Assembly (NCBI GenBank): GCA_001782805.1
Contig: MFPT01000003.1
Location: forward strand, 1 to 42,071
Origin: Candidatus Magasanikbacteria bacterium RIFCSPHIGHO2_01_FULL_41_23
Lineage (GTDB): Bacteria > Patescibacteriota > Patescibacteriia > Magasanikbacterales > UBA922
Direction of reading: 5' to 3'
DNA: 42,071 nucleotides
The position numbers and the translations under genes were made by a program. The notes beneath the pieces are model-generated. The model saw only the letters and a list, made by a program, of their open reading frames with translations. It was not told where the DNA came from and searched no databases. Of this stretch, positions 1 to 27,937 are shown piece after piece (position 1 is the first letter of the stretch; the number at the start of each line of letters is the position of its first letter).

Positions 1-250
1 CGTCCAACAGTCGGCTAAGCAACATCCCGCAGTCTACCGACTACCGTCGGTATCCTACGGGACGATTGCCTAGCCGCCGCCCATTAGCTGAAATATTCCT
101 TTTCTTTTTTGGGCTATCGCCCAATTGTTTAAAAAAATCTGAAATTTCTTTTTCTTTATTTGATAGGGGGGCTGCCTGGCTATCGCCAGTCAGTAAGGTT
201 GTTTTCTCCGCTCCCTATGGTCGCTCCAAAAACGCTATTTATAAAAATCA
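1..250. repeat. Island repeat family, copy A (long form, may continue left of the window)
   Basis: Exact 31-nt match gaaatattccttttcttttttgggctatcgc at 90-120 with 6248-6278 (copy C). Further alignable blocks with copy B (tttctttatt, gttttctcc.ctcc, cc[ag]aaaac). Hairpin ttgggc-tatc-gcccaa at 109-124. Confidence 0.8.
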
Positions 251-288
251 GTAAACAGACTAAAATACAGCTAATTCAATATCGAAAT

Positions 289-1317
289 ATGCCTAAAACA
301 CTATTCAACAAAACCATTCAAGAGCTAGAATCAAACGCTATTTATTGGTGGCCGGATTTTCTGTCACAACTTGAGGAGAATGCCAGCATAATTCCCTTGC
401 TCATCAAAACGCAGGACAAATTTTTATCTCTCCTCGATCTTTCAGACAAAAATCCGTATAAGATTTTCGAACTGATCAAAAGCTCGGATTCCCCAGCTAA
501 CCTGTTTTTAAAGCATTTAGTGGTTTTAACAGACTTCGGAGGTGAACAAATTCAACGCCTAAACAAACAATTTTCATCAGTCTTTGAAAAGAAAAAAGGC
601 AAATTTTTCTTCACCTTTACCTGGAAAGAACAGTATTACGATTATTTTTTCAAAAAGCTGCCAATAACCGGAAACTTAGATAACAAAAAACTTGGTATAG
701 ACGGAAAAAATATTAATAACGAACAAGCTTTAGATGAGCTAAAGGAAGACTTAATATCAATCCTTCTATTTGGTGCAAATTCAATCAACGAAAAAACTGC
801 AAACAATCTGTCAAAATGCGAGATTGGTAATTTGCTAGGGCAAAAGGAAGCTTTAGAAAAATATGTGAAAGAAAAGTACATTTGGGTCAGCAGAATCACC
901 GGAGGGGCACAAGCTAACACACTCGGTCAGGTCGCCCAAACATATATTGTTGATTATTTGAAATCAAAACTTGATAAAAGCTTTTCGGTAAATCGTAATG
1001 GCTCAGTTAAAGTAGCAGGAAGTAAGAAAAGTATTCCTTTCGATATTGTCGTCAAAAAAGGTAATAAAACTGTTGGTGTTGAGGTGACTTTTCAGGTCAC
1101 GACTAACAGTACTATCGAACGAAAATCAGGACAGGCAAAAGCACGACGTGATTTGATGCATAAAGCTGGAAATTTCGTCGCGTATATTATTGACGGTGCG
1201 GGAAATTTTCAAAGGAAAAGTGCCATTTCAACAATATGCAACTACAGCGATTGTACAGTGGCTTATTCACAAAAAGAATTTGACACTTTGGTGAATTTTA
1301 TTAAAGAAAAACTATGA
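289..1317 (+). CDS. Putative type II restriction endonuclease (partner of the adjacent C5-MTase; family not recognised)
   Basis: Track ORF 160..1317 starts at TTG inside repeat copy A, so I trimmed it to the first ATG (289). Its stop overlaps the MTase start (ATGA at 1314-1317), typical R-M coupling. FDIVV..VGVEVTFQ could be a PD-(D/E)xK-like core, but this is weak. Confidence 0.5.
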   Translation: MPKTLFNKTIQELESNAIYWWPDFLSQLEENASIIPLLIKTQDKFLSLLDLSDKNPYKIFELIKSSDSPANLFLKHLVVLTDFGGEQIQRLNKQFSSVFEKKKGKFFFTFTWKEQYYDYFFKKLPITGNLDNKKLGIDGKNINNEQALDELKEDLISILLFGANSINEKTANNLSKCEIGNLLGQKEALEKYVKEKYIWVSRITGGAQANTLGQVAQTYIVDYLKSKLDKSFSVNRNGSVKVAGSKKSIPFDIVVKKGNKTVGVEVTFQVTTNSTIERKSGQAKARRDLMHKAGNFVAYIIDGAGNFQRKSAISTICNYSDCTVAYSQKEFDTLVNFIKEKL

Positions 1318-2681
1318 AATTAACATTTATTGACCTTTTCGCTGGCACTGGCGGAATAAGGATTGGATTCGAGAAAGCATGCCGCAAATTCGGTATTGAA
1401 ACCGAGTGCATTTTAAGTTCAGAAATTGATAAAAAAGCATGCGAAACCTATGAAATGAACTTTGGAGAAAAACCGCAGGGCGACATACGAAACATTAAAG
1501 AAATGAAACAATTTGACGTACTGCTTGGCGGCTTTCCTTGTCAACCATTTTCATATGCAGGCAAACAAAAAGGATTTGGCGATACAAGAGGCACGCTTTT
1601 TTTTGAAATTGAAAGAATTTTAAAAAACTATAAACCTAAATTTTTTCTATTAGAAAATGTTCGTGGATTAACTACTCACGACAATGGACGAACATTTGCC
1701 ACAATAATTCAAGCTTTGGAGAAATTGGGATATGGGGTCAATTATTTATTGCTCAATAGTTCAAATTTTGGCGTACCTCAAAATAGAGTAAGGGTCTATA
1801 TAGTTGGCCAGCTCAATGAAAAACCAATTTTAACCATAAATTCAGACCGTGGAGCGGCAGATAGCCACAAATTCAAAAATTTATTCTCACAAAAATCACT
1901 CTTTGGCCACAATGAATTTAAAGTTGTTGGAGATGTTTTAGACCAAGAAGTTGATAGTAAATATTTGTGCTCTAAAGATTTTATTACTAGGTTAAAAAAA
2001 GTGGCCGGCAGCGATTTTTCAAAGCTTAATGGTACTAGACTTATTGACTACAGAAACGGAGACTCTATTCATTCGTGGGAATTGGGAATTAAAGGTGAAT
2101 GTAGCAAAGATGAAATAGAGCTTATGAATCAGCTTGTTAAAAATCGCAGGAAAAAAATATTCGGAACACATCAAGACGGAAAACGCCTCACTTTAGAGCA
2201 AATTAAAACATTTGTTAAAATCCCAAAAATCGAGGCCGTCATAAAATCTTTAGAGGAAAAGGGCTATATCAAACAAGTAGATGGCAAATACAATCCTGTA
2301 GCCGGAAACATGTCGTTTGAGGTTTTTAAATTTCTTGACCCAAACAGTATCTCAATCACTCTTGTCTCAAGTGACGCGCATAAATTAGGTGTAGTGGTAA
2401 ACAATCAACCAAGAAGAATTACACCAAGAGAAGCGGCAAGAATCCAGGGTTTCCCTGAAAGTTTTAAAATACATCCTGATGATTCTGCCGCATATCATCA
2501 ATTCGGAAATGCAGTAGCCGTTCCAGTTATTCAGGCAGTGATAGAGAATTATTTAACAAACAATATATTTACAACGCCAACAAGGGAAAATTCAAAAATA
2601 CAAATTGAACAGCCAAAAAATAAAATCCCTCCGGGCTTTTCCCCGCAGCTTGCTGCGACTTCCTTAACGCATTGGGTATAA
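1314..2681 (+). CDS. DNA (cytosine-5)-methyltransferase
   Basis: C5-MTase motifs occur in canonical order: I FIDLFAGTGG, IV GFPCQPFS, VI LLENVRGL, VIII QNRVRVYIVG, IX TPREAARIQGFP, X GNAVAVPV. There is a long variable region between VIII and IX. The last ~14 codons run into the IS200-like left hairpin. Confidence 0.95.
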   Translation: MKLTFIDLFAGTGGIRIGFEKACRKFGIETECILSSEIDKKACETYEMNFGEKPQGDIRNIKEMKQFDVLLGGFPCQPFSYAGKQKGFGDTRGTLFFEIERILKNYKPKFFLLENVRGLTTHDNGRTFATIIQALEKLGYGVNYLLLNSSNFGVPQNRVRVYIVGQLNEKPILTINSDRGAADSHKFKNLFSQKSLFGHNEFKVVGDVLDQEVDSKYLCSKDFITRLKKVAGSDFSKLNGTRLIDYRNGDSIHSWELGIKGECSKDEIELMNQLVKNRRKKIFGTHQDGKRLTLEQIKTFVKIPKIEAVIKSLEEKGYIKQVDGKYNPVAGNMSFEVFKFLDPNSISITLVSSDAHKLGVVVNNQPRRITPREAARIQGFPESFKIHPDDSAAYHQFGNAVAVPVIQAVIENYLTNNIFTTPTRENSKIQIEQPKNKIPPGFSPQLAATSLTHWV

Positions 2682-3172
2682 GGTATACTGTGAACCATGA
2701 GCCAATTTATCCATAAATCACATAATGTCACCGTACTTCTCTATCATATCGTCTTTCCAGCGAAGTACAGACGAGCGGTATCGTCCGTGACCGTAGACAC
2801 CACCATAAAAGAAATATGTCTAGAAATAAGCAAGCGCTATGAAATAACTTTTTTAGAAATCGGCACAGACAAAGATCATATTCACTTTCTCATCCAATCA
2901 GTCCCCATGTACCCAGTAAAAAAGATTGTTCAAATCGTGAAGAGTATTACCGCAAAAGAAGTGTTCAAATCCTGCCCTGAAGTAAAACAACAGCTCTGGG
3001 GTGGAGAATTCTGGTCAGACGGCTACTACGCCAGTACCGTCGGACTCCACGGCAACGAACACACCATTCAAAACTATGTTAAAAACCAAGGAAAACCAAG
3101 AGAAGAATATCTGCAACTCCATACCCAGCAATTGGTATTGATTTAATACCTCGTCAGCTTGCTGCGAGGTGG
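2640..3172 (+). mobile_element. IS200/IS605-family insertion sequence (tnpA only)
   Basis: tnpA is flanked by related hairpins: cgcagc-tt-gctgcg at 2644-2657 and cctcgtcagc-tt-gctgcgagg at 3149-3169 (shared core cagcttgctgcga). This is expected for LE/RE structures of this family. Exact ends cannot be determined from one copy. Confidence 0.7.
2697..3146 (+). CDS. tnpA: IS200/IS605 family Y1 (HUH) transposase TnpA
   Basis: 149 aa, with HUH motif HIHFLIQ and C-terminal tyrosine region WSDGYYASTVG. Size and layout are typical of IS200 TnpA. Confidence 0.9.
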   Translation: MSQFIHKSHNVTVLLYHIVFPAKYRRAVSSVTVDTTIKEICLEISKRYEITFLEIGTDKDHIHFLIQSVPMYPVKKIVQIVKSITAKEVFKSCPEVKQQLWGGEFWSDGYYASTVGLHGNEHTIQNYVKNQGKPREEYLQLHTQQLVLI

Positions 3173-3192
3173 TTTATCGGTGTAATTTTTTT

Positions 3193-3432
3193 GAAAAAGT
3201 AAAAGTGTATATCGCCTAACACGGTATATGCGGTTCCGCTACGCTTCACCCATATTGCTCCCTGCGGTCGCAACATCGCATACACGGGGACGTTGGTCGA
3301 AATGTCGCTTTTCCTTTTAGGGCTAACGCCCTTGCTTTCACAAAATGGACAAAATTATTTTTTTTCTTTATTAATAGAGGGGAGTAATGGAGTTTTCTCC
3401 ACTCCGCTCCGAAAACAATTTTTAAAAAAAAT
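3193..3432. repeat. Island repeat family, copy B (long form)
   Basis: Aligns with copy C over about 95 nt (acgctt..cccatatt..gtcgcaacatc..ttggt[ct]gaaat..gggcta[at]cgc), with copy A over the downstream blocks, and with copy D over the 5' block (aaaaagt..tatatcgcctaaca..gatatgcg). Hairpin agggc-taac-gccct at 3319-3332. Confidence 0.8.
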
Positions 3433-3614
3433 ATGCCGGAAGGACCAAGAAATTATGAACCAACACCTTAGAGGGAACCGCAACCAAAAGTCAATCTGAC
3501 GGAAATCGCCTTACCTTTTTTTGGCGATTATGAAAAAAATCGATATATAGGTTTCTTATTCCAAGACAATCAGAAGCGGTTGATGTACAAATTATTTATG
3601 CGGATATAGGTCAG

Positions 3615-3995
3615 ATGTGGAGAGATGAATTGATTAAAAATAAAGTTTACTTGAGTACTTACCAAAACGATCCAAATCTACTTAAAGACGCTGAGATGCT
3701 AAACTTAGCAATTGAAGAAAGAAGAAAAATAATTTCAAAAGAGGGTAAATATGTAGGCATAAGAGGTATCCTAAATATTGCACACCTACTTTTATTTAGT
3801 GCCTTAACAAAAAAATCAATAAGTTCAGATCCAGATACCATCCTACTTATAGAGGTTACAAGCACTGGTGGAAATGACTGGGCAAAATTAGAGGACAAAT
3901 TAAACGATTACACACTGGGGTACCCTGAATTGCGTGGTAAATGGAAAAAGCTATATGCAGTATTTCCAGAAAAGAATATTCAACTTTTTAAGTAA
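3615..3995 (+). CDS. Hypothetical protein (126 aa), first ORF of the cassette after repeat B
   Basis: Uninterrupted ORF in the island orientation with no recognisable motif. There is no in-frame ATG upstream (stop at 3531). Confidence 0.4.
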   Translation: MWRDELIKNKVYLSTYQNDPNLLKDAEMLNLAIEERRKIISKEGKYVGIRGILNIAHLLLFSALTKKSISSDPDTILLIEVTSTGGNDWAKLEDKLNDYTLGYPELRGKWKKLYAVFPEKNIQLFK

Positions 3996-4027
3996 TGACT
4001 AATTTTAGCAAAATTCCATGTCTTCTC

Positions 4028-4056
4028 TTGACATCTAGTTTCAGTTATGATACAAT
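4028..4056 (+). promoter_or_regulatory. Sigma70-like promoter for the AbiE-like pair
   Basis: TTGACA (4028-4033), 17-nt spacer, TACAAT (4051-4056). The ATG at 4069 is only 12 nt after the -10, so the leader is very short. Confidence 0.55.
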
Positions 4057-4068
4057 ATCGTCATATAT

Positions 4069-4689
4069 ATGAAATATAGAGAAATACTGTTAGAACAACT
4101 CAAAAAACAGCCATACTTCACTAAAAAGGCCATACACCAGCTTAGTGAACAGTACGGCCTTAAAAGTACCACGGTTGACACTTATATCAGCCGATCTTTG
4201 AAACGCAAAGATATTATCCCCTTAAAAAGAGGTTTGTACGTGTCTACGGATTTTTATAATAAAAACAAAAATGATACATCCTACACTTTCTACCTTGCCA
4301 ACATTATTCGTACACCTTCTTTTATAAGCTCATGGACAGCACTCCAGTATTACGACCTAGTCACCGAAGCTATCCACACTATTACATCAATTACACCTAA
4401 AGTCACCCGATCTTATGAAACGAAAGCGGGTAACTTTGCATACCAGTCTATACAGAAAGAAATGTTTTCAAATTTTTCTTCCGTAAAAGGTAAATTTGAT
4501 TTCTTTATTGCCTCGCCCTCAAAAGCGCTTTTTGACTTGCTCTATTTTAAAACACGACAGTTTCGCGGTGTACATTTTGAGGATATTAAATCGCTCATTG
4601 AAGAATTACGCATTGATATTGATGAAATGAGTGAAGAGGAACAAAAAAAATTATTTTCTATGATTAAAAATTATTTACACTATGAATAA
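4069..4689 (+). CDS. AbiEi-like antitoxin / wHTH regulator (type IV TA)
   Basis: 206 aa. The N-terminal HTH-like region ends in the AbiEi-typical LKRGLYV. It overlaps the downstream AbiEii-like gene by 8 nt. Confidence 0.6.
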   Translation: MKYREILLEQLKKQPYFTKKAIHQLSEQYGLKSTTVDTYISRSLKRKDIIPLKRGLYVSTDFYNKNKNDTSYTFYLANIIRTPSFISSWTALQYYDLVTEAIHTITSITPKVTRSYETKAGNFAYQSIQKEMFSNFSSVKGKFDFFIASPSKALFDLLYFKTRQFRGVHFEDIKSLIEELRIDIDEMSEEEQKKLFSMIKNYLHYE

Positions 4690-5968
4690 TCAGATTCTCA
4701 CAGCTCTCAAAGAAAAATTTAAAGATCTTACTACTCATGGAGAACTGGAAGCTGAAACTCAGCGCAATATTCTCAAAGAAGAATTGCAGTTTTATATTTT
4801 AAATTTTATTTACCACCATCCGGAATACAGTAACTGGATTATGTATGGTGGTTCTGCACTCCGTATCTGTCATGGCCTTGATCGTATGTCTGTTGATTTG
4901 GATTTTGAAGTTGAACATTCTGTGTCAGAATCTTTTTTGAATGAATTGAAAAAAGAAATAGAAATGTACTTCAAAAATACTTACAACACTGAATCAGAAC
5001 TTCTAACTATTAAATCAACAACCAGTAGAGGGCTACGTTTATGCTTCCATATTGGTGATGAATTAGGTGTTAAACATCCTTCAAAGCAGGTAATTGTCAA
5101 AATTGATCTCAACCACTTTGTGGCTCCAAAAACAGTAATTGAACGCCGACCAATTAACCGTGATCAATTTTCATTTGTTATTAAGACATATAACATGTCC
5201 GCACTTATGGCGAGTAAAATTGCAGCAATTTTACTTCGTGGGCAACGCGGTGGTGTGGGCGGAGTGATGTATGAAGAAAAAGGACGTGACATTTATGATC
5301 TTCTTTGGTATATGACAAAAAAAGCTATACCAGACCTTGATTATTTAATTGCTAAAGACATCAACGTGAAAGATTTGCGTGTGCTTTTTGATAAACTTAC
5401 TTTACAAATGAATAAAGTAAATGATATAAATTTAAAACAGGATCTCTCACCTCTTTTTACAAACCAGACATTTATTGAAAACTGGCTTAAAAATTGGAGA
5501 ACAACTTACCTACGACTTTTTGAAGATTACAATATTCGCACGGTCGCCACATTGGAAAAAATTACCATTTCCCAAGACTTCCATACAGATAATTTTTCTT
5601 TTCTTTTTTGGTATTATACGGATAATGGAAAATTGTTAGGAGTCACCTACTCTATTAGTGATTATTGGATTGAATTTCGAGAAGGTGAACTATTAATAAC
5701 CCCTGATAAAAAAATTACAGATCTTGTCGAATTTAATAGTAACGGAATTAGTAGTAGGCCAGCACCACAAGATAAATTATTACAGTACGCTACTATCTTT
5801 TATCAAAAAACTGAAAACTATCTCAAAAAAATGAATCACACAGTATTTGGCGATACTATAAATACTAAAATTATCAGAATGACCGCAGATAATTTAAACC
5901 AAAAAGAACAAATCTTGCTCAACAAATCAACATTACTTTCTTGTGAATTAGATGACCTGTTAAAATAA
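4682..5968 (+). CDS. AbiEii/DUF1814-like nucleotidyltransferase toxin with long C-terminal extension
   Basis: YGGSALRICHGLDRMSVDLDFEV matches the GG(S/T)AL..R.S.DLDF signature of AbiEii NTases. At 428 aa it is clearly longer than the family core as I recall it. Confidence 0.7.
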   Translation: MNNQILTALKEKFKDLTTHGELEAETQRNILKEELQFYILNFIYHHPEYSNWIMYGGSALRICHGLDRMSVDLDFEVEHSVSESFLNELKKEIEMYFKNTYNTESELLTIKSTTSRGLRLCFHIGDELGVKHPSKQVIVKIDLNHFVAPKTVIERRPINRDQFSFVIKTYNMSALMASKIAAILLRGQRGGVGGVMYEEKGRDIYDLLWYMTKKAIPDLDYLIAKDINVKDLRVLFDKLTLQMNKVNDINLKQDLSPLFTNQTFIENWLKNWRTTYLRLFEDYNIRTVATLEKITISQDFHTDNFSFLFWYYTDNGKLLGVTYSISDYWIEFREGELLITPDKKITDLVEFNSNGISSRPAPQDKLLQYATIFYQKTENYLKKMNHTVFGDTINTKIIRMTADNLNQKEQILLNKSTLLSCELDDLLK

Positions 5969-5972
5969 TTGT

Positions 5973-6185
5973 TTGGCCAAGAGGCATTCACCCCTTAATC
6001 CCCTCTGCGCTTTTTGTTCAAAACGACAAAAAACAAAATCATTCTTGGATAAAAATGGCAAAATTTTTGCATGTGGCACCTGTCTAAAAAGCCGCGAATC
6101 TGAAGGCTCAGAAACTTGTCCTATGTCCACGATGAAAGATTTATATGAATTGGTAAAAGACAGCGATAAAGTTCTCTCATTTTAA
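5973..6185 (+). CDS. Possible small zinc-ribbon protein (70 aa, TTG start)
   Basis: CAFC..(17 aa)..CGTC cysteine pairs. It starts 4 nt after the AbiEii-like stop. There is no ATG start and its 3' end abuts repeat copy C, so support is weak. Confidence 0.25.
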   Translation: MAKRHSPLNPLCAFCSKRQKTKSFLDKNGKIFACGTCLKSRESEGSETCPMSTMKDLYELVKDSDKVLSF

Positions 6186-6285
6186 CGCTTAGTTTCGCCC
6201 ATATTACTCCTTTCAGTCGCAACATCAGATATACGCGGACATTGGTTGAAATATTCCTTTTCTTTTTTGGGCTATCGCTTAACAC
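6185..6285. repeat. Island repeat family, copy C (short form)
   Basis: Contains the exact 31-mer shared with copy A (6248-6278) and aligns with copy B over about 95 nt. The hairpin equivalent is degenerate here (ttgggc-tatc-gcttaa). Confidence 0.8.
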
Positions 6286-6320
6286 TTTTCCATAATGAAT
6301 AAATTTTAATTTTTCAATTT

Positions 6321-6755
6321 ATGAAGACGATTTACGTTTTTATGTCTGAAATGGACAATTCAACGACGATCTGCAATCCACTTTCTGAACTTAAAAGGTT
6401 ATTGGCCGTCCTGCCAAAATCATGTCCCATTTATGTCATGGGAGGGTTTGCCTTAGACGGCCATTTGGGAAAATTAACGCGCAAACATAATGACGTTGAT
6501 TTGATTTGCTGGCGCAAAGACGTAAATATTATCAAAAAAGTTTTAGAGCGGATTGGCTACAAAGTTAGGGAAAAATACGACAAGAATAATCCCAAACTAC
6601 CAATATTATTAGAAACAGACGAGGAGAATCCTGCTATGGATGTAAAAATTATCGATGAACAGCCGAATAACAGCTTTACATTTCATTTCAACACTCCTGG
6701 TCAGCAAATTTTTTCCAAAAAAATGCTCGGCTCAAGTCAAGTTTCACTCGATTGA
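6321..6755 (+). CDS. ANT(2'')-like (pol-beta superfamily) nucleotidyltransferase, short form
   Basis: MGGFALDGHLGKLTRKHNDVDLICW closely parallels the GGGWAIDARLGRVTRKHDDIDL active-site segment of ANT(2'')-Ia as I recall it. At 144 aa it may be 3'-truncated. Confidence 0.6.
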   Translation: MKTIYVFMSEMDNSTTICNPLSELKRLLAVLPKSCPIYVMGGFALDGHLGKLTRKHNDVDLICWRKDVNIIKKVLERIGYKVREKYDKNNPKLPILLETDEENPAMDVKIIDEQPNNSFTFHFNTPGQQIFSKKMLGSSQVSLD

Positions 6756-6778
6756 TAAATTATTGCGACTAAAAAAGA

Positions 6779-7798
6779 TTGAACGCATTGGATTGGGAAG
6801 AACGACAAGATACAAAAAAAATTGACCGAAAACGATTTGGTTGGAAGCAGTTCATCCCTAATAAGGTATCGCTATTTCTTGAAATTTTTTGTAATGTATT
6901 TGGGGTTACTTTTTCCAACAATTTACTAATTAACCAACTAATTCATATGAGCACAAACACTATGGAAAATATCATCAAAGAGGGTTTAACACCAATCGGT
7001 GTACAAGAAAACGGAGAAACTTTTGGCCTTTCTCCAGAAGAGCGTCCTGGAATTTTGCATTTATTTGGACGTTTCGGCCATGGTAAAAGCGTCACTCTTG
7101 AAGACATTGTAATTTCAGACATCCACAATGGCCGAGGTGGCATGCTGATTGATCCTTACGGGGATCTTATCAAAGATATTCAATCTTACATTCCAGCGGA
7201 CAAAGCTAACAAAGTTGCAATCTTTGAAGCACAGGCCGAAAAGCTTGATGAAAACATCACAAAATTCCGAAAAGAAATCCACTTTGAGGAAATGAAAAAG
7301 GATAGCCAAAAGTTTCTCCTTTGCAAGTTGGACTACCGCAGTTTGGGTACAGGCGTAGCAAGAGAACTCGGTCTATATTTAGTGAAGCAGTTTTTGCAAA
7401 TCGTTGGTGGCGAGAATCGTTCGCTCGGACTCGACGAAGCACATAACTTCATAGACGAAGAAGTGTTGGAACAAATCGTACAAAGTAAAGAAAGTGGCTT
7501 GTCCTGTATTTTGTCAGACCAAACATCTATGCATTACCGCACAGATATTCTTGAACGCACACTTGAAGCCGCGAATCACGTACTTTGCTATTTCGTTGAT
7601 AGCGCAACAGCCAATCTGATCAATAAGTATCACTCAGAAATGAGTCCGAGCGAACTCACATCACTTGAAAAGTACAACTTTATGGCAAAAGTGAATGCAA
7701 AAACTGCTTCACCAGCCGTCTTGAAGTTAAAAGGAGTTTTCCCGATTCCCTACCCCAATAAAGGAATCGTCAAAAAAATCATATTCCTTCACACCTAA
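6779..7798 (+). CDS. P-loop ATPase, TraD/VirD4/HerA-like
   Basis: Walker A GRFGHGKS, then IDPYGDL, Walker B LGLDEAHNF, then ILSDQTS. The track start is TTG 6779 (hydrophobic N-terminal segment); the first ATG is 6948. Confidence 0.55.
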   Translation: MNALDWEERQDTKKIDRKRFGWKQFIPNKVSLFLEIFCNVFGVTFSNNLLINQLIHMSTNTMENIIKEGLTPIGVQENGETFGLSPEERPGILHLFGRFGHGKSVTLEDIVISDIHNGRGGMLIDPYGDLIKDIQSYIPADKANKVAIFEAQAEKLDENITKFRKEIHFEEMKKDSQKFLLCKLDYRSLGTGVARELGLYLVKQFLQIVGGENRSLGLDEAHNFIDEEVLEQIVQSKESGLSCILSDQTSMHYRTDILERTLEAANHVLCYFVDSATANLINKYHSEMSPSELTSLEKYNFMAKVNAKTASPAVLKLKGVFPIPYPNKGIVKKIIFLHT

Positions 7799-7895
7799 TT
7801 TAGTAAACAGATTCTCAAACCCCATATTTTAGCCAAAATAATGCCACCTGACATTACTATATCAGTACAATGATACAGATATTGAATTATATTAT

Positions 7896-7967
7896 AACCG
7901 TGAAATTAGTCACTTTTTTACAGTTTTTCACGGTTATCTTGACAAAACAGTGAAAATAATGTATAAT
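7896..7967 (+). promoter_or_regulatory. Consensus promoter with upstream inverted repeat (candidate operator) for the Fic gene
   Basis: TTGACA (7939-7944), 17 nt, TATAAT (7962-7967). A perfect 10-nt inverted repeat aaccgtgaaa (7896-7905) / tttcacggtt (7926-7935) abuts the -35. Confidence 0.6.
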
Positions 7968-7996
7968 GGAGTTAATATTCACTACTAATAACAAAT

Positions 7997-8890
7997 ATGC
8001 CAAAAAAATTACATATTTTCAACACAATATCGCAGTTAAGAGAACGATTCTATACCTCGGCTGTTGTAAAACAGGCGCTTTTAAAGCTAATCAGCGAAGC
8101 AGAAGTGGCCGAACAAGTATACAACTCTAACGCGATTGAAAACAGTACACTCACTCTTGAGGAAACCGAAAAAATACTTTTGCAAATAGATTTGGATCGA
8201 TATATTACGGAGCGAGAAATGTTTGAAGCCAAAAATTTGGCGCGAGTTGTGTCGTATATTGATCAAAGAGCCAAAGAACGAGAGCTCTCCCTAGAGGTGA
8301 TTTTATCACTTCACAAAATGTTGATTTCCAATATTCGCGATGATATCGCTGGCAGATTTAGAAAAAATAATGAATTTGTACGCGTTGGCAGTCACATTGC
8401 TCCCAATCCCAACGAAGTGGTGGGTCGCACGGAAAAAATGTTATCCGAATACAACGCCACCAGCCACGAAAATATTATTAAAAGAATAGCAAAATTGCAT
8501 CTGGCTTTTGAATATATCCATCCATTTTGCGATGGTAATGGCCGTATTGGTCGGGTTATCAATAATTATTTGCTAATACGAGAAGGATTTGTCCCAATAA
8601 ACATAAAATTTATCGACCGAAACAAATACTACGAAGCGTTTAAAGAATTTGACGAAAAAGACGCGACGGCAATTATGGAAGAAATAGTAGGTAAAGCACT
8701 TACCAATAGTTACCACAAACGACTTGCCTATTTGGAGGGTGCCAATATTATTACACTCGCTGAATACGGAAAAATAAATAAAATATCACACTCTAATTTG
8801 ATTAATAAAGCCAGTCGACAGACAATAGAGGCCTTTTTGGAAAAAGGTGTGTGGAAAATAGGTGCCGTGCAAAAACATCAAGGTGATTAA
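7997..8890 (+). CDS. Fic family protein (AMPylase-type), class II with internal inhibitory helix
   Basis: HPFCDGNGRIGR matches the Fic motif HxFx(D/E)GNGRxxR. N-terminal SNAIEN fits the inhibitory (S/T)xxxE(G/N) motif. The C-terminal segment looks HTH-like. Confidence 0.9.
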   Translation: MPKKLHIFNTISQLRERFYTSAVVKQALLKLISEAEVAEQVYNSNAIENSTLTLEETEKILLQIDLDRYITEREMFEAKNLARVVSYIDQRAKERELSLEVILSLHKMLISNIRDDIAGRFRKNNEFVRVGSHIAPNPNEVVGRTEKMLSEYNATSHENIIKRIAKLHLAFEYIHPFCDGNGRIGRVINNYLLIREGFVPINIKFIDRNKYYEAFKEFDEKDATAIMEEIVGKALTNSYHKRLAYLEGANIITLAEYGKINKISHSNLINKASRQTIEAFLEKGVWKIGAVQKHQGD

Positions 8891-8927
8891 CGAATTCGCC
8901 CCCACTGATTGAATGACGAGCAAAAAA

Positions 8928-8990
8928 ACAAAAAGTTTAAAAATTTTATATCGCCTAACAGCCGATATGCGATTACGCTAACCGATATTT
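8928..8990. repeat. Island repeat family, copy D (5' module only)
   Basis: aaaaagt..tatatcgcctaacagccgatatgcgattacgcta aligns with 3194-3245 of copy B. Hairpin atatcg (8948-8953) / cgatat (8963-8968). Confidence 0.6.
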
Positions 8991-8991
8991 T

Positions 8992-9270
8992 ATGACAGAA
9001 AAAGAAATTGCTACAGGCGTAGTTCATAAAGTACCGGCTGATTTAAATGAGATATTAATTTCAAATCCCGACGTACTTGAAAAATGGAACAGCCTTACAT
9101 CTCTCGCACGTAACGAGTGGATATGTTGGGTAACTATTGTCAAGAAACCAGAAACAAGAAAAGAACATTTAGTTCGTTTACGTGCAGATCTTTTGAATGG
9201 GAAACGCAGACCCTGTTGTTGGCCAGGCTGTCATCATCGTAGACCAAGTGCAAAAAAGTGGTTTAAATAA
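8992..9270 (+). CDS. YdeI/OmpD-associated family protein
   Basis: NEWICWVTIVKKPETRKEHLVRL resembles the conserved core of the YdeI/OmdA domain. Confidence 0.55.
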   Translation: MTEKEIATGVVHKVPADLNEILISNPDVLEKWNSLTSLARNEWICWVTIVKKPETRKEHLVRLRADLLNGKRRPCCWPGCHHRRPSAKKWFK

Positions 9271-9309
9271 GTAAAACATTCACTTCATTTCAGAGTTATT
9301 TGAGCATTG

Positions 9310-9765
9310 TTACACCAAATCCCGCTGATCAAATTCTTTTTCGCAATAATGGCATTGAAAAAATATTTTTTTGCCAGCTCGTTTGGGTGTAAATTTAGTT
9401 TTAATGATTTCGTGATTAGTAATGCATTTAGGATTGGGACAATGCGCCACTGTGGTGAGGAGCCCGGGAATTTCCACGGGAAATTTTTTACTTATCTCGC
9501 CGTTACGAATAATATTAATACTGGCTTCGGGTGCGATTAAATAGACTTGATTAATTTCGTCCGGTGTCAATTCGCGATTTTCAATTTTTATAATATCTTT
9601 ACGCCCCAGCTTTTTACTGGGCATATTGGCGCCCATAGTGACAATGGAGTCTGAATTTAAAAGACGCAACAAGGTAATGAGGCGCACGGCTTGTCCTCCC
9701 GGGACATGATCAATCACCGTGCCATTGGCAATTTTAAATACGCGATATATTTTTGTGGTAGGCAT
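9310..9765 (-). CDS. pyrI: Aspartate carbamoyltransferase regulatory subunit
   Basis: NGTVIDHVP and KDIIKIENREL segments, plus a C-terminal zinc cluster CPNPKCIT..CHYCE. Lies directly downstream of pyrB. Confidence 0.85.
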   Translation of the reverse strand: MPTTKIYRVFKIANGTVIDHVPGGQAVRLITLLRLLNSDSIVTMGANMPSKKLGRKDIIKIENRELTPDEINQVYLIAPEASINIIRNGEISKKFPVEIPGLLTTVAHCPNPKCITNHEIIKTKFTPKRAGKKIFFQCHYCEKEFDQRDLV

Positions 9766-9769
9766 AAAA

Positions 9770-10696
9770 TTAATTAAGTTTACCGAGAACTAGGCCGAGT
9801 AGAGCTTGGCGTGCGTACAGGCCGTTTTCCGCTTGCTGAAAATAATAAGCATGAGGCGTATTGTCCACAGCCGATGTGATTTCACCAACGCGTGGCAGGG
9901 GATGGAGCACGCGCATATTTGGTTTTACGCCGCGCAAAAGCGGAGTGTCCAAAATATACATGCTTTTGGCCTTTTCGTATTCCGTGATATCGGAAAAACG
10001 TTCTTTTTGAATACGGGTCATATATAAAATATCCACTTGTCTAATTACTTCGTCAATTGTATCTTTACAATAATATTTAATTCCGGCAGTATCCAATTCA
10101 CGCAGTAGATAATCAGGCATTTGCAAAAAATTGGGCGCCACAAAATACAGAGTCGGTTGGAAAAATTTTAGGGCTTGTAATAATGAATGCACGGTGCGGC
10201 CGTACCTCAAGTCGCCGACCATGGCGATTTTCAAGCCGGTTAATTTATTTTGGCATTCTTTAATGGTAAATAAATCCAACAGTGTTTGGGTGGGATGTTG
10301 ATTGGCACCATCGCCGCCATTTAAAATTGGTTTATCAGTAGCTTCGCTCGCGCGTCGGGCTGAACCTTCCAAAGGATGGCGCATGGCGATTACATCCACA
10401 TATTGGCCGATAATTTTCATGCCATCATAAAGAGTCTCACCTTTGGAAGCAGACGACACAGCTGCGTCAGCAAATCCAATCACTCTTCCACCAAGCCGCT
10501 GCATCGCAGTTTCAAATGATAAACGCGTGCGCGTGGAAGGTTCAAAAAAACAACTTCCCATTACTTTTCCTTCCAAAAGTTTTGGTTGCGGTTTTTTCTT
10601 TAATTCTCCAGCATGTTTAAGGACAGTTAAAATATCAGTTCGGCTTAATTCAGGAATTGAAATAATGTCGCGATCCTGCCAATTATTTTTCAGCAT
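9770..10696 (-). CDS. pyrB: Aspartate carbamoyltransferase catalytic subunit
   Basis: STRTR, HPTQ and HPLPR motifs; 308 aa. Confidence 0.95.
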
Positions 10697-24542: not shown

Positions 24543-27500
24543 CTACACATCCAAATTCTGGACATTTTTAGCGTGCGTTTGGATGAATTTTTTGCGCGGA
24601 GCAACTTCGCTGCCCATAAGAATATCAAAAATTTCATTGGCGCGTTCCGCGTCTTCAATTGTGACTTGTTTGATGACGCGATTGGCCGGATTCATCGTGG
24701 TTTCCCATAGTTGCTCCGGATTCATTTCTCCCAAACCTTTATAGCGTTGAATGGCAAAACCAGAGGATTTTTTGTTTTCCGTCACTTTTGTTTCCGAACT
24801 CGCGATTTCGTCGGTTTCTTCTTCTGCCACTTGAATATCTTCGGCTTTCAGATTATTTTTTTGCAAAAATTTATCTAAAGCTTCGGCATCATAGAGCCAA
24901 GTTGTTTCTTTGCCTTTTTTGGCGCTGTACAACGGTGGTTGAGCAATAAAAATATGTCCTTGATAAATCAGATCTGGGAAATAACGGAAAAATAATGTTA
25001 AAAGTAGAGTACGAATATGCGCGCCGTCAACATCCGCATCAGTCATAATGACAATGCGATTGTAACGTAGTTTGGTAATGTCAAACATTTCGCCAATGTT
25101 CGTGCCCATTGCAATAATAAGGGATTTTAATTCATTGTTCGTCAGAATTTTATCCAAACGCGCGCGTTCCACATTTAAAACTTTTCCGCGCAAAGGAAGA
25201 ATGGCTTGGATATTACGGTCGCGGCCTTGCTTGGCACTATTATGGACAAAAATACCACTCGCGAGCGCGAAATTATGGGTGTTTGGAATTTCAATATCGT
25301 ATACAGGAATTTTTTGTGATATTTTTTTAATTGCAATAATTCGGTGATTGTATAATTTTACGGCTTCAGTTAATCGGTTTGCGTCATCGGCGAAAAATCG
25401 TTTACGAAGTGTTTCCAATTTTAAATAATTTTTGTTTTGACGGATATTACGTCGGGTCATATCGTAGTTTTGTATCGTGCCCTCTTTTTTATACACATCA
25501 GACAATAATTTCATTGATGTGGCGTAATACACTTGGTCATATGCGGCTTTACGTTTTTGACGGAATTCAGGAGTCCACTGAGCATGGGTTTCGTGCGCAC
25601 GCCAGATTCGTAAATTTTCATTATTCCATTGCGCCTTAGCTTTATGGCGCAATACTTCTTTTTGTTCAGGATGATTTTCAAAGAATTTTTTTACACGACC
25701 AGCCTGTGTAATTCTATGATTCGTATCCGCCCAATAGATTATTTGTTGTTGATTTAGCAACTCATTATTTTTTTGACGATAACCGGCATTTGAATTATAA
25801 AAATTCAAAAAAATATCTCCCATTTGTTTTTTATAAACCGGGTTGGCCCACTGTCCTTTGGCTCGAGCGCTTAATAGTGGAGACATTTTTTTCATGGTTC
25901 GGCTAATTTTCGCGCGATATTCAGAAGTTCTTTTTAAAATATTTAATTTGGCAATCACATCGGGACGGTGTAATGTTTTTTTGATGTGTGTTCGATGAAT
26001 GGTCAAATGTTCTTCAGAAGAAATCAAACGAACATTATCCGGATTGTTGTTACGTTTATTGAAATCAACATGATGACGATGGCCTTTTTCAATTTTTTTA
26101 TACGCATTATGCTGTAGGTTGTAAGCATCGGACAATAGATGGGTGAAAATCCAGCGATTATCTTTTGGATCAAATACTAATTCATAGCCTTCAATCGTGA
26201 TTCGTTTTCCTTTTCGAGAAATTTGGCGGTATAAGGGCATTAATGAATCTTTGTTAGTTAATTCGGCGACAACTTTGTATGAACCATCACGTGTCATAAA
26301 ACGATGGTCAGGTGTACAGATTATTTTTTCATCAGAATCAAGCGTAATTTCTGTTACCTCAGCTTTGGCCTTGGTTTGACGTGGGGAAAGAATTTTTTCA
26401 ATCCCAATGCGGCCATCTTCAAGAATAGTGTAGCAATAATTTTGTTTGCCTAGTTTTTCTTCTTCAATCAGTTCCAAAAAAGATAAACTGCGGCCATCAG
26501 CCAAAGCAACTTTAGTATCACCAGAAAAACAGCCTCCGGCACTATCGCCTTCCACAATGAATAATTCAGAAATACTGGCGTCGCGGCTGGAGCAATCAGC
26601 CAATTTTCCCGGCAAAGTAAATCCTTCCAACGCACTTTTGCGCAAGACCGTATCGCGTGCCATTTTGGCGGCGGCGCGAGCGCGGGCCGCGATAATACAT
26701 TTGGCGAGAATTGCTTCGGCATCCTTGGGATGTTCTTCCAAAAAAATCGCAAAGTGATCACCAAAAACTTGTTCTACGGCCGGTTTAACTTCGGGATTAC
26801 CTAGTTTGGCTTTGGTTTGGCCTTCAAATTGTGGATTGGGAATTTTAACGGAAATAATCGCGGTTAAGCCTTCGCGCACGTCTTCTCCGGTCAAACTCGC
26901 GTCTTTTTCTTTTAAAATACTTTTGTTGCGGGCGTAATTATTTATGGTTCTGGTTAAAGCCAGACGAAAGCCGGCCACGTGCATGCCGCCATCCGGATTC
27001 GCGATATTATTGGCGAACGCAAAAAGCGATTCATTATAATCGTCTGTGTATTGTAGGGCGATTTCCACCAACACATCATCCACTTTTTTTTCAATATAAA
27101 AAACCGTTTCATTTTTAATTTCCCGATTTTTATTAATGTGTTTGGTGTAGCTGGCAATGCCTCCTTCAAAATAAAATTGATAGGTGGTATTGAAAGGAAG
27201 TGCGGAAACATCTTTCTTTTTTTCCTCGGCACTGCGTTCATCATGTAAAATAAGATGAATGCCTTTGGTTAAATAGGCTTGTTGACGAACATGGTCAATA
27301 ATGTATTTCCAATCAAAATCAAGCGTTTCAAAAATTGACGCGTCCGGATGAAACATGATCGTGGTGCCGGTAGTTTTACTGTTGCCAATTGCTTTGACTT
27401 TTCCTTGCGGTTTGCCTATTTTATAATTTTGTTCCCAGATTTTGCCATCGCGATGAATAATCGCTTTTAAATCCGTGGAAAGCGCGTTTACCACTGATGC

Positions 27501-27896: not shown

Positions 27897-27937
27897 AAAT
27901 TTTTGAATAGTACAGGCACAGCGTATCATATTTGAAG

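What the first reader, a model, noticed from the sequence alone, without database searches (positions are those of the whole stretch)
1..9300. Co-directional accessory island built from repeat-headed defence/mobility cassettes
Every supported ORF from 289 to 9270 is on the + strand, and the gene content is accessory. It comprises a type II R-M pair, IS200 tnpA, an AbiEi/AbiEii-like pair, an ANT(2'')-like NTase, a TraD/HerA-like ATPase, Fic and a YdeI-like ORF. The window then switches abruptly to minus-strand housekeeping at pyrI (9310). Copies of a single repeat family sit immediately upstream of the R-M cassette (copy A), the hypothetical-AbiE cassette (copy B), the NTase-ATPase cassette (copy C) and the YdeI ORF (copy D). 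The layout of same-orientation cassettes each headed by a conserved structured repeat is integron- or CALIN-like in logic. However, I see no attC core sites and no integrase in the window. It could therefore be a different, undescribed cassette-accretion or cassette-expression system. The left boundary lies outside the window.
Basis: partly seen in the sequence, partly recalled or inferred. Interest (0 to 1): 0.78.

Follow-up and report, generated by a model that had tools for sequence, protein, structure and literature searches.

The report
Integron-like gene-cassette array, CPR bacterium
The first 9.3 kb of the window is the cassette array of an integron-like gene-capture platform in a Patescibacteria (CPR) genome, and its integrase, 211 bases outside the window, is a Xer-type recombinase that lacks the extra domain thought to define integron integrases.

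Summary
Positions 289-9270 carry only + strand accessory genes: BanI-type R-M, an IS200-like element, AbiEi/AbiEii, an NTase, an ATPase, Fic and YdeI. One repeat family separates them.

- The repeats do carry attC-type core sites. Each is RYYYAAC ... GTTRRRY around a roughly 100-nt hairpin with covarying stems.
- There is an integrase. It starts 211 nt left of window position 1, divergent from the array, behind a conserved attI-like site.

A covariance model of the site finds it only on the cassette strand and only upstream of homologous 270-aa recombinases. This held in every Patescibacteria locus with at least about 2 kb of flank. There were no hits in about 1 Mb of control DNA.

The two ends of a cassette match each other (permutation 0/10000). 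Variant contigs diverge within the GTT of a site. An orthologous platform in a related species holds different cassettes.

The integrase passes NCBIfam's XerA model. Its closest solved structure is the integron integrase VchIntIA, but it lacks the IntI-specific I2 insertion. The attI and R' arms resemble dif.

Best reading: a sedentary chromosomal integron variant run by a Xer-like recombinase, widespread in Patescibacteria. I found no description of it in the searchable literature.

The parts
1..89 (+). attC-like site A. It is the 3' part of an ORF-less 'mini-cassette' cut by the window start. R'' GTCCAAC at 2-8, R' ATTAGCT at 83-89.
   Evidence: CM R1 hit on the identical sequence L001:9706-9809 (19.6 bits, E about 0.01-0.02). 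As single-stranded DNA the top strand folds at -20.0 and the bottom strand at -26.7 kcal/mol (z -4.2 and -5.9). The same 187-nt element directly follows the attI of two different integrases and follows site J2 in L001.
90..231 (+). Conserved cassette 5' leader, copy A (GAAATATTCCTTTTCTTTTTT-GGGCTATCGCCC hairpin ... AGGGGGG ... TTTTCTCCGCTC ... CGCTCCAAAAACG).
   Evidence: nhmmer family, found on the cassette strand and starting at R' in several CPR lineages, apart from one weak inverted match. The alignment and fold show mostly sequence conservation.
289..2681 (+). Type II R-M pair: BanI-family endonuclease 289-1317 and C5 cytosine methyltransferase 1314-2681. This is the cargo of cassette 1.
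   Evidence: Pfam RE_BanI 1.5e-140 and DNA_methylase 8e-102. PADLOC REase_II and MTase_II.
2644..3169 (+). IS200/IS605-family insertion inside cassette 1. tnpA is at 2697-3146, flanked by its own similar hairpins CGCAGCTTGCTGCG (2644-2657) and CCTCGTCAGCTTGCTGCGAGG (3149-3169).
   Evidence: Pfam Y1_Tnp 3e-35 and NCBIfam transpos_IS200 above cutoff. The hairpins were read directly from the sequence. No Y1 gene is present in the other arrays.
3206..3306 (+). attC-like site B, the end of cassette 1. R'' GCCTAAC 3214-3220; L'' CGGTATATGCGG; core CTTCACCCATATTGC ... GCAACATC; L' GCATACACGG; R' GTTGGTC 3292-3298.
   Evidence: CM R1 89.8 bits, E 6e-22. It is a member of seed alignment A2.
3299..3414 (+). 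Cassette 5' leader, copy B.
   Evidence: nhmmer E 7e-26.
3615..5968 (+). Cargo of unit 2: hypothetical protein 3615-3995, AbiEi 4069-4689 and AbiEii 4682-5968. A promoter-like site lies at 4028-4056.
   Evidence: PADLOC AbiEi 7e-36 and AbiEii 4.5e-28. Pfam AbiEii. TTGACA-17-TACAAT, 11 of 12 matches.
5972..6185 (+). Degenerate conserved 3' hairpin element (5972-6036) and a C-terminal remnant of a DsrE-family gene (5973-6185). This is the scar of a lost cassette whose site is C.
   Evidence: nhmmer 3' element E 2e-5. Pfam DsrE profile positions 64-116 of 116, E 2e-4.
6157..6255 (+). attC-like site C. The 5' half is degenerate. R' ATTGGTT at 6241-6247.
   Evidence: CM R1 20 bits, E 0.01. 78% identical to B over 93 nt.
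6248..6296 (+). Cassette 5' leader, copy C (first third only). The 32-mer TGAAATATTCCTTTTCTTTTTTGGGCTATCGC is identical to copy A.
6321..8890 (+). Cargo of unit 3: NTase 6321-6755, P-loop ATPase 6779-7798 and Fic 7997-8890. Fic has its own promoter at 7939-7967.
   Evidence: Pfam Aminoglyc_resit 1e-6 and Fic 1e-22. PADLOC SoFic/PDC-S04. TTGACA-17-TATAAT, 12 of 12 matches.
8948..8985 (+). Truncated attC-like site D. Only R'' GCCTAAC (8953-8959), L'' and about 15 more nt remain. The 3' half has been deleted.
   Evidence: 80% identical to the 5' part of B over 41 nt. Not detected by the CM.
8992..9270 (+). Last cassette gene, YdeI/OmdA family. No site follows it. The array ends against pyrI (9310-9765, minus strand).
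   Evidence: Pfam OmdA 1e-13. A different OmdA gene sits in the sister array L100.

Best explanation
Window 1-9300 is the cassette array of a sedentary chromosomal, integron-like platform of a Patescibacteria (probably Magasanikbacteria-related) genome.

Layout (shown). The platform's tyrosine recombinase (272 aa) lies on the minus strand and starts 211 nt left of window position 1. Between it and the array lies an attI-like site of consensus ATAnAAACGA|GTTRNNN GAAAT. Each cassette ends in a ~100-nt imperfect palindrome of this form: ACATC, R'' (RYYYAAC), A, L'', conserved core CTTCACCCATATTG, variable hairpin, CAACATC, L', NAAC, R' (GTTRRRY), GAAAT.

Mechanism (inferred). The recombinase exchanges strands between the first and second base of R' (G|TT). 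A circular cassette is thereby inserted at attI or excised between two sites. TTRRRY and the leader stay at the cassette's 5' end, and the rest of its site stays at its 3' end. The site most likely acts as a folded single strand, by a one-strand exchange resolved by replication, as in integrons and in CTX-phage/XerCD integration. In the fold, the R box plus flank forms a dif-like right arm and the L box forms a dif-like left arm.

Expression (inferred). Cargo is expressed from cassette-borne signals (the conserved leader, and own promoters for AbiE and Fic) and perhaps also from a platform promoter.

State of this array (shown). It is old and decaying: site C is half-lost, site D is truncated, a gene remnant is present, an IS200 has inserted, and the interior is fixed in the population. 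Only the integrase-proximal end varies.
For: 1. Architecture. Longer contigs that are 100% identical to the window over 11,317 nt place a divergent Phage_integrase gene just to the left. In L002 the integrase plus array sit between pyrC... and pyrI-pyrB, so they interrupt a pyr gene cluster.

2. Generality. Homologous 270-aa recombinases on long contigs all have a divergent, co-directional array of small accessory genes on the N-terminal side and housekeeping genes on the other side.

3. Site specificity.
- CM R1 gave 36 hits at E<=1 in 160 kb (28 of them at E<=1e-6), all on the cassette strand inside arrays.
- It gave 22 hits in 1.26 Mb of 80 recombinase loci. All were upstream of, and antisense to, Patescibacteria integrases of at least 49% identity.
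- About 58 of those 80 loci carry recombinases at 28-42% identity: ordinary Xer loci plus roughly 20 Patescibacteria ones. None of them had a hit. None of the downstream flanks had a hit either.

4. Structure. 24 consensus pairs, 15 with compensatory changes. Covariation score 0.478 against 0.164 in shuffles, with 0 of 500 shuffles as high.

5. Cassette unit. The variable 4 nt of R' at a cassette's 5' end are the exact reverse complement of the R'' of that cassette's own site in 12 of 28 cases (mean 3.0 of 4). Within one junction the figure is 5 of 40. In random pairs it is 6%. Permutation gave 0 of 10000.

6. Crossover point.
- L001 and L099-L101 are identical for more than 4 kb and diverge right after the GTT of site J2 (GTTGGTC... 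against GTTATAT...), followed by different cassettes.
- The mini-cassette is preceded by three different left contexts that converge exactly at the G.
- In two L001 cassettes TTATGT/ACATAA and TTAAGT/ACTTAA match perfectly while base 1 differs.

7. attI. ATAnAAACGA|GTTRNNN|GAAAT lies 72-149 nt from the start codon in 22 of 23 loci.

8. Turnover. L020 has an integrase 75% identical and the same nifS-nifU-sufC side, but its cassettes are entirely different.

9. Enzyme.
- The catalytic R, HxxR, H and Y are present.
- The Foldseek top hit is the attC-bound integron integrase 2a3v, E 1e-16.

10. Bottom strand. It folds more stably than the top strand in 40 of 43 sites (p 5e-7).
Against: - The recombinase lacks the IntI-specific insertion (I2), which reads the extrahelical bases of folded attC in classical integrons. 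It passes NCBIfam's XerA model, so it may be, or may also be, a housekeeping Xer.
- No experiment or read-level data shows excision or insertion.
- The left-end variants come from metagenome assemblies in which a 187-nt element is repeated, so some joins could be chimeric.
- One variant (L003) differs from the window up to 24 nt beyond R', not exactly at G|TT.
- The interior of this array shows no variation in 24 contigs.
- The R-to-L spacing (1 nt against 4 nt) and the conserved central core differ from canonical attC. I could not run IntegronFinder's attC model.
- The bottom-strand energy bias could be a nearest-neighbour effect. Wobble counts do not clearly favour either strand.
Confidence: 0.8

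Rival explanations
1. Xer/dif-type accretion. The 270-aa protein is the cell's chromosome-dimer resolvase, the 'attI' is its dif site (next to the gene, as with XerS/difSL and XerH/difH), and the cassettes are IMEX-like or pdif-module-like elements integrated by ordinary double-stranded Xer recombination.
For: - The protein passes NCBIfam recomb_XerA_Arch (224 bits against a cutoff of 220) and has no I2.
- The family is very large and conserved (60-70% identity, more than 7000 members) and syntenic with housekeeping genes.
- The 11-mer after G of R' averages 7.6 of 11 matches to the E. coli dif XerD arm, against 4.6 for background. CGCATA in L' and attI recalls the XerC arm.
- Smyshlyaev et al. 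(10.1101/542381) list the 'Cand' subgroup among presumed Xer proteins.
Against: - At least three different integrase/attI loci are linked to the same cassettes in one population, whereas a chromosome has one dif.
- Sites are ~100-nt hairpins whose stems covary rather than keep a fixed arm sequence.
- The would-be overlap regions differ between attI and the sites, and among sites. This blocks a complete two-strand exchange.
- About 20 other Patescibacteria loci in the same scan carry more distant Xer-like genes (35-42% identity) with no R1 hits. Those could be the housekeeping enzymes.
- The two roles are not mutually exclusive.
Confidence: 0.1
2. Ordinary integron remnant (CALIN). The sites are canonical attC sites served by a true IntI encoded elsewhere in the genome or now lost, and the neighbouring Xer-like gene is a coincidence.
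For: - The site anatomy fits attC (R''/L''/L'/R', with AAC...GTT).
- In archaeal integrons only 6 IntIs were found for 75 genomes with attC arrays (PMC9668308).
Against: - Every locus with flank pairs the array with the same recombinase family in the same divergent geometry and with a conserved attI at a fixed distance.
- All 120 listed homologues are 239-286 aa, too short for an IntI with I2.
Confidence: 0.04
3. The repeats are RNA-level or regulatory elements (terminators, processing or stability hairpins, a shared promoter-leader) or REP/MITE-like selfish repeats, with no role in recombination.
For: - All copies are sense to the genes and intergenic.
- The leader and the 3' element are conserved in sequence and may well act in expression.
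- Rfam has no match, so an undescribed RNA cannot be excluded.
Against: - There are no copies outside arrays in about 1.4 Mb searched.
- Own-end complementarity of cassettes cannot be explained by an RNA role.
- Contig variants break at GTT.
- A half-site (attI) sits next to the recombinase gene.
- The antisense strand folds better.
Confidence: 0.04
4. The IS200-like Y1 transposase at 2697-3146 (a RAYT-like enzyme) spreads the repeat family.
For: Y1 enzymes act on single-stranded DNA hairpins, and the gene lies 67 nt from site B.
Against: - It has its own, different flanking hairpins.
- It scores as IS200 and not as RAYT: 20.6 bits against a cutoff of 80.
- The other arrays have no Y1 gene.
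Confidence: 0.01

Closest known systems
Sedentary chromosomal integrons (IntI + attI + attC cassette arrays, e.g. the Vibrio cholerae superintegron with its VCR sites)
   Same: - Divergent integrase, an attI next to it, and a co-oriented array of small accessory, toxin-antitoxin or defence cassettes.
- Each cassette ends in an imperfect palindrome with RYYYAAC...GTTRRRY boxes.
- The inferred crossover is at G|TT.
- Sites within a lineage are homogeneous in sequence.
- ORF-less cassettes and cassette-borne promoters occur.
- The closest solved structure to the integrase is VchIntIA.
   Different: - The integrase is 270 aa and lacks the I2 insertion. It scores below the IntI cutoffs (TIGR02249: 208 bits against 265) and above the XerA cutoff.
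- The R-to-L spacer is 1 nt on one side and 4 nt on the other.
- A central core (CTTCACCCATATTG ... CAACATC) is conserved across lineages.
- Many cassettes carry a conserved 125-nt leader and a conserved 3' hairpin.
- The host is Patescibacteria.
Xer/dif and IMEX elements, especially CTX-phage integration by XerCD through a folded single-stranded attP hairpin (from my own knowledge; not checked in a paper here)
   Same: - A Xer-family enzyme without I2.
- Site arms resemble dif (TTATGYGAAAT against TTATGTTAAAT; CGCATA).
- A folded single strand that mimics a duplex site, and tandem accumulation of elements at the site.
   Different: - The recombinase gene and its site form a dedicated platform, present in several copies.
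- The inserted units are single-gene cassettes rather than phages or islands.
- Every unit keeps a complete hairpin site, so it should remain excisable.
'Cand' subgroup of simple tyrosine recombinases (Smyshlyaev, Barabas and Bateman, 10.1101/542381)
   Same: Probably the same protein family: close to Xer and found only in candidate phyla.
   Different: That paper listed the group among putative dimer-resolution proteins. It reported no cassette array or site for them. Identity with that subgroup is inferred; I did not test it with their HMMs.
Archaeal integrons (Ghaly et al. 2022, PMC9668308) and CALINs
   Same: attC arrays in uncultivated small-genome lineages, mostly without a detectable IntI.
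   Different: The archaeal IntIs that were found do carry the additional domain. Here a specific I2-less recombinase is always adjacent.
pdif modules of Acinetobacter plasmids (from my own knowledge)
   Same: Accessory gene modules bounded by Xer-type sites, with no dedicated integrase domain.
   Different: pdif sites are 28-bp duplex sites in alternating orientation on plasmids. They use the host XerC/D and have no attI platform and no hairpin sites.

Membership tests
Integron (sensu IntegronFinder / Mazel) | A tyrosine recombinase carrying the IntI-specific additional domain (I2 helix around patch III) | tested here: not met
   - TIGR02249 and PRK15417 align in two stretches that skip profile positions ~181-252. 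The scores are 208 and 138 bits against cutoffs of 265 and 435.
- The phmmer alignment to 2a3v covers query residues 12-177 and 195-270 against chain residues 13-181 and 242-317.
- The AF2 model has only short strands at 181-195.
- All 120 listed homologues are 239-286 aa.
Integron (sensu IntegronFinder / Mazel) | The integrase gene is adjacent to an attI site and to a co-oriented cassette array | tested here: met
   The attI consensus is found 72-149 nt from the start codon in 22 of 23 loci.
Integron (sensu IntegronFinder / Mazel) | attC sites: imperfect inverted repeats R''-L''...L'-R' with conserved AAC/GTT, where structure is conserved more than sequence | tested here: met
   Alignment A2, RNAalifold and pair counts. 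Differences from the canonical form: a 1-nt against 4-nt spacer, and a conserved core.
Integron (sensu IntegronFinder / Mazel) | Crossover between G and TT of R', so that each cassette carries TTRRRY at its 5' end | tested here: met
   In silico only. Own-end complementarity is perfect in 12 of 28 cassettes, with 0 of 10000 permutations as high. Contig variants diverge within GTT. One variant (L003) does not fit exactly.
Integron (sensu IntegronFinder / Mazel) | Recombination of the folded bottom strand, marked by extrahelical bases | tested here: inconclusive
   The bottom strand is more stable in 40 of 43 sites, and an asymmetric 3-4-nt bulge lies between the R and L boxes.
Integron (sensu IntegronFinder / Mazel) | Detection by the IntegronFinder attC covariance model | not testable with these tools
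   The model is not available here, and Rfam has no attC family.
Xer/dif chromosome-dimer resolution | A Xer-family recombinase | tested here: met
   NF040815 recomb_XerA_Arch scores 224-227 bits against a cutoff of 220. XerA structures are the 2nd and 3rd ranked hits.
Xer/dif chromosome-dimer resolution | A single ~28-bp dif site (11-6-11) at the replication terminus | tested here: inconclusive
   The arms resemble dif. However, at least three integrase/attI loci are linked to this population, and the spacers are 8-10 nt on the top strand. The position of the terminus is unknown.
REP/RAYT or IS200-mobilised repeats | The repeats match the hairpins recognised by the adjacent Y1 transposase and are scattered through intergenic regions | tested here: not met
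   The IS200 element has different hairpins. The RAYT model scores below cutoff. The repeats are confined to arrays.

The most novel reading that the evidence does not exclude
Patescibacteria carry a widespread, undescribed lineage of integrons. Its integrase is a Xer-like ('Cand') recombinase without the I2 domain, its attI is dif-like, and its attC hairpins rebuild a dif-like duplex. It would be either a living intermediate between Xer/dif and classical integrons or an independent reinvention. If so, I2 is not required for cassette capture, and much of the 'integron-type recombinase without attC' signal in metagenomes belongs to such systems.
Probability: 0.55. Interest if true: 0.9.

Novelty: new variant of a known kind. 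Interest (0 to 1): 0.82.

Why it matters
- Origin of integrons. Integron integrases are thought to have arisen from Xer by gaining the I2 helix, which switched them from double- to single-stranded substrates (PMC7790495, PMC4792948). A natural cassette platform with attC-like hairpins, a dif-like attI and an I2-less enzyme would make that transition directly testable.
- Gene flux in CPR bacteria. The platform would be a main route for gaining and losing accessory and defence genes in ultra-small CPR genomes of about 1 Mb. Here it carries R-M, AbiE and Fic.
- Assembly behaviour. It would explain why CPR contigs so often end next to these 'XerD' genes.
- Detection gap. Standard tools demand the IntI C-terminal signature, so they cannot report these platforms as complete integrons. 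A 2026 permafrost study flagged that 97% of contigs with 'integron-type' recombinases lack recognised attC sites (PMC13323075).

Tried and rejected
- Rfam, at gathering and at E<=1, and tRNA/tmRNA scans found nothing in the region.
- A generic R''/L''/L'/R' pattern scanner was too permissive. Real and shuffled sequence gave similar counts (38 against 26-37 per window), so I dropped it in favour of the covariance model.
- Looking up the exact int1 protein gave only one short contig.
- Looking up Fic to find interior cassette variation gave 24 collinear contigs.
- Nine literature searches on integron, Patescibacteria, CPR, Parcubacteria, Saccharibacteria, CALIN and attC-like terms found no description of such arrays. 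This covers only the searchable open library.
- Considered and rejected:
  - a CRISPR array, because there are no short regular repeats;
  - a shufflon or invertible system, because all sites are in direct orientation;
  - a Y1/RAYT origin of the repeats;
  - a terminator role for the GGGCTATCGCCC hairpin, because the T-run lies on the wrong side.
- Wobble-pair counting to decide which strand folds was ambiguous.

Full report
**1. Observation**

ORF listing and Pfam/PADLOC scans confirm the gene content. The genes on the + strand are:
- a BanI-family endonuclease (289-1317) and a C5 methyltransferase (1314-2681);
- an IS200-type Y1 transposase (2697-3146);
- a hypothetical gene (3615-3995);
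- AbiEi (4069-4689; PADLOC 7e-36) and AbiEii (4682-5968);
- a small nucleotidyltransferase (6321-6755) and a P-loop ATPase (6779-7798; only faint TraD/AAA matches);
- Fic (7997-8890) and a YdeI/OmdA protein (8992-9270).

pyrI follows at 9310 on the minus strand. The rest of the window is housekeeping: pyrB, gatB, tmk, thyA, mdh/ldh, an intein-containing gyrB and ftsW.

The repeat copies A-D are real. No Rfam family, tRNA or tmRNA matches the region.

**2. What lies left of the window**

Looking up the BanI protein shows that the window is the start of NCBI contig MFPY01000010.1 (a Rifle aquifer MAG). Many independent assemblies break at the same place, inside copy A. Three kinds of contig run further left. 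All are 99.99-100% identical to the window across the array.
- L002 has a 272-aa tyrosine recombinase on the minus strand. Its start codon is 211 nt left of window position 1. On the far side of that gene lie pyrC and other pyr genes. The integrase plus array therefore sit between pyrC... and pyrI-pyrB.
- L001 has a different 270-aa recombinase next to nifS-nifU, followed by two extra cassettes (Peptidase_S51 and a PNPOx-like gene) before BanI.
- L003, with 9 similar contigs, has the N-terminus of a third recombinase directly before the BanI cassette.

**3. Anatomy of the repeat**

Read together with L001, the inter-cassette DNA resolves into an attC-like site. Its parts, in order, are:
- ACATC;
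- R'' (RYYYAAC), for example GCCTAAC at 3214-3220;
- a single A;
- a 12-nt L'';
- a conserved core, CTTCACCCATATTG;
- a variable hairpin;
- CAACATC;
- L';
- NAAC;
- R' (GTTRRRY), for example GTTGGTC at 3292-3298;
- GAAAT.

Evidence on the structure:
- On a MAFFT alignment of 16 sites from four genomes, RNAalifold predicts 24 pairs, 15 with compensatory changes.
- Pair counting gives 89.6% of cells paired, against 71.5% in shuffles and 28-42% when partners are slid. The covariation score is 0.478 against 0.164, and no shuffle of 500 was as high.
- As single-stranded DNA the sites form R-box and L-box helices separated by an asymmetric 3-4-nt bulge.
- The strand complementary to the genes is the more stable one in 40 of 43 sites (mean 2.4 kcal/mol, p 5e-7). 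Wobble counts do not settle which strand is selected.

In the window:
- A (1-89) and B (3206-3306) are complete sites.
- C (6157-6255) has lost its 5' half and is preceded by the C-terminal remnant of a DsrE gene.
- D (8948-8985) keeps only R''-L''.

It recurs on the cassette strand, starting at R', in several other lineages, apart from one weak inverted match.

**4. Association with the recombinase**

The recombinase has more than 7000 relatives of about 270 aa at 60-70% identity, all from Patescibacteria where a source names the organism. On three long contigs, each homologue has a divergent array of small accessory genes on its N-terminal side and housekeeping genes on the other side.

The covariance model R1 gave these results:
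- 36 hits at E<=1 in 160 kb (28 of them at E<=1e-6), all on the cassette strand and inside arrays. There were none in window 9300-42071.
- In 80 loci fetched from GTDB species representatives with the integrase as query (1.26 Mb), 22 hits. All were upstream of, and antisense to, Patescibacteria integrases of at least 49% identity.
- No hits in the remaining ~58 loci, whose recombinases are 28-42% identical. These are ordinary Xer loci plus roughly 20 Patescibacteria ones.
- No hits downstream of any integrase.

Every Patescibacteria locus with at least about 2 kb of upstream flank has at least one site. Many others simply end within 500 nt of the start codon.

A conserved attI-like motif, ATAnAAACGA|GTTRNNN|GAAAT, lies 72-149 nt from the start codon in 22 of 23 loci.

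**5. Evidence that cassettes are the recombining unit**

In an integron the crossover at G|TT leaves TTRRRY at the 5' end of each cassette. That hexamer therefore matches the R'' of the cassette's own site and not the R'' of the junction it sits in. This is what is seen.
- Over 28 adjacent site pairs, the variable 4 nt match perfectly in 12 (mean 3.0 of 4). Within junctions the figure is 5 of 40, and in random pairs it is 6%. Permutation gave 0 of 10000.
- In L001 the Peptidase and PNPOx cassettes show TTATGT/ACATAA and TTAAGT/ACTTAA, while the first base differs.
- JGI contigs L099-L101 are identical to L001 for 4.2 to 9.6 kb and diverge right after the GTT of site J2. They continue with other cassettes (PhnB-like, RibD_C, OmdA).
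- The 187-nt ORF-less mini-cassette, whose 3' part is window 1-86, follows two different attI sites and also J2. The three contexts converge exactly at the G.
- L020, a Magasanikiibacteriota genome, has an integrase 75% identical to int1 and the same nifS-nifU-sufC neighbours, but its cassettes are entirely different.

Points against, or limiting:
- The interior of this array is invariant in 24 contigs.
- L003 differs from the window up to 24 nt beyond R'.
- All variants come from metagenome assemblies.

**6. The enzyme**

- The catalytic residues are present: R131 in AGLRVSE, H220-x-x-R223, H246 and Y255.
- NCBIfam places the protein above the XerA cutoff and below the IntI cutoffs. The IntI alignment skips the I2 region. 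The phmmer alignment to VchIntIA shows the same gap.
- An AlphaFold2 model (pLDDT 87.7) has only short strands at residues 181-195.
- Foldseek ranks the attC-bound VchIntIA (2a3v) first (E 1e-16) and XerA second.
- The 11-mer after G of R' (consensus TTATACGAAAT) resembles the XerD arm of E. coli dif. It averages 7.6 of 11 matches against a background of 4.6. The dif sequence itself was verified in MG1655. The CGCATA of L' and attI recalls the XerC arm.

The folded site therefore looks like a dif mimic. A Xer enzyme without I2 acting on a folded strand has a known precedent in CTX-phage integration (my own knowledge).

**7. Interpretation**

The best reading (confidence 0.8) is a sedentary chromosomal integron variant run by a Xer-like recombinase. 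Rivals:
- plain Xer/dif IMEX-type accretion (0.1), which is not exclusive of the best reading;
- a CALIN served by a true IntI elsewhere (0.04);
- non-recombinational RNA, regulatory or REP repeats (0.04);
- Y1-driven repeats (0.01). The IS200-like element has its own distinct hairpins at 2644-2657 and 3149-3169 and is an ordinary insertion in cassette 1.

**8. Novelty**

The recombinase family probably equals the 'Cand' subgroup of Smyshlyaev et al., which was presumed to be Xer. Archaeal integrons have been described with I2-bearing IntIs. A 2026 study notes that most 'integron-type' recombinase contigs lack recognisable attC sites. Nine full-text searches found no report of integron-like arrays in CPR bacteria. 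I file this as a new variant of a known kind. An unindexed paper, or routine IntegronFinder 'CALIN' output, may already contain these arrays.

Noticed in passing
window 90-231, 3299-3414, 6248-6296; also L014 4281-4395, L017 9822-9908, L029 160-264, L031 8860-8971: A ~125-nt cassette leader is conserved across distant Patescibacteria. It starts exactly at R' and is present in perhaps 40% of cassettes. It has a GGGCTAWCGCCC hairpin and the string AGAGGGG..GTGTTTTCTCCGCTC..CGCTCCGAAAACGATTT. Conservation is mostly at the sequence level. It could be a promoter or translation leader, or an accessory recombinase-binding arm.
   Followed up: partly
window 5972-6036 (degenerate); L014 3087-3164 and 5244-5321; L017 2745-2821, 4097-4134, 5224-5263, 7754-7825; L023 57-130, 5930-6003: A third conserved module lies right after cassette stop codons. 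It is a long hairpin with covarying stems (for example GTCTTGGCTTCGGGGC ... GCCCCTACGCCAAGAC) around a conserved loop ATTCACCCC..CCCCTCTGCCC, followed by an A-run. It is not a canonical terminator, and its function is unknown.
   Followed up: partly
L001 7989-8174 and 9613-9798; L002 8282-8467; window 1-86; analogues right after attI in L019, L023 and L030: ORF-less 'mini-cassettes': R' plus flank, a 3-11-nt loop, then a flank plus an R''-like box and a hairpin site. In effect each is an integrated site with no cargo. They often occupy the first position after attI.
   Followed up: partly
L001 7098-7910 vs L002 7353-8171 (outside the window): The two integrases differ through their first ~200 residues but are identical over the last ~55 residues. 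The DNA there is only 82% identical, so the C-terminus (..[51 protein letters not shown]) is under very strong purifying selection. The ..SPL end is shared with VchIntIA.
   Followed up: partly
upstream regions of the integrases: L001 7930-7965, L002 8205-8230, L003 ~265-295, L017 ~9935-9965: Each integrase has its own 25-30-bp palindrome between the start codon and attI. The sequences differ but the form is the same. It may be an operator or part of attI.
   Followed up: no
window 2644-3169: An IS200/IS605-family element sits inside cassette 1 with matching flanking hairpins (CGCAGCTTGCTGCG and CAGCTTGCTGCGAGG). Its left end overlaps the last codons of the methyltransferase ORF.
   Followed up: partly
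window 4028-4056 and 7939-7967: Near-perfect sigma-70-type promoters lie in front of AbiEi (11 of 12 matches, with TG) and Fic (12 of 12). These toxin-type modules are probably expressed independently of any platform promoter.
   Followed up: no
window 24543-27929 (minus strand): gyrB encodes 1128 aa, with an intein (Intein_splicing, residues 483-897) inserted before the Toprim domain.
   Followed up: no
window 39232-40581: There are two 300-nt direct repeat copies 1050 nt apart (74% identity), in a G+C-richer stretch of the window. A second, 42-nt pair has nearly the same spacing (1047 nt, 39750/40797). They are probably internal repeats of a large surface protein gene.
   Followed up: no
contig ends: L003-L011, L019, L021, L022, L027, L029, L030, L032, L033, L036, L038: Metagenome contigs of Patescibacteria very often end within a few hundred bases upstream of these recombinase genes or inside the sites. 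The arrays are therefore likely to be systematically under-assembled and missing from MAGs.
   Followed up: partly
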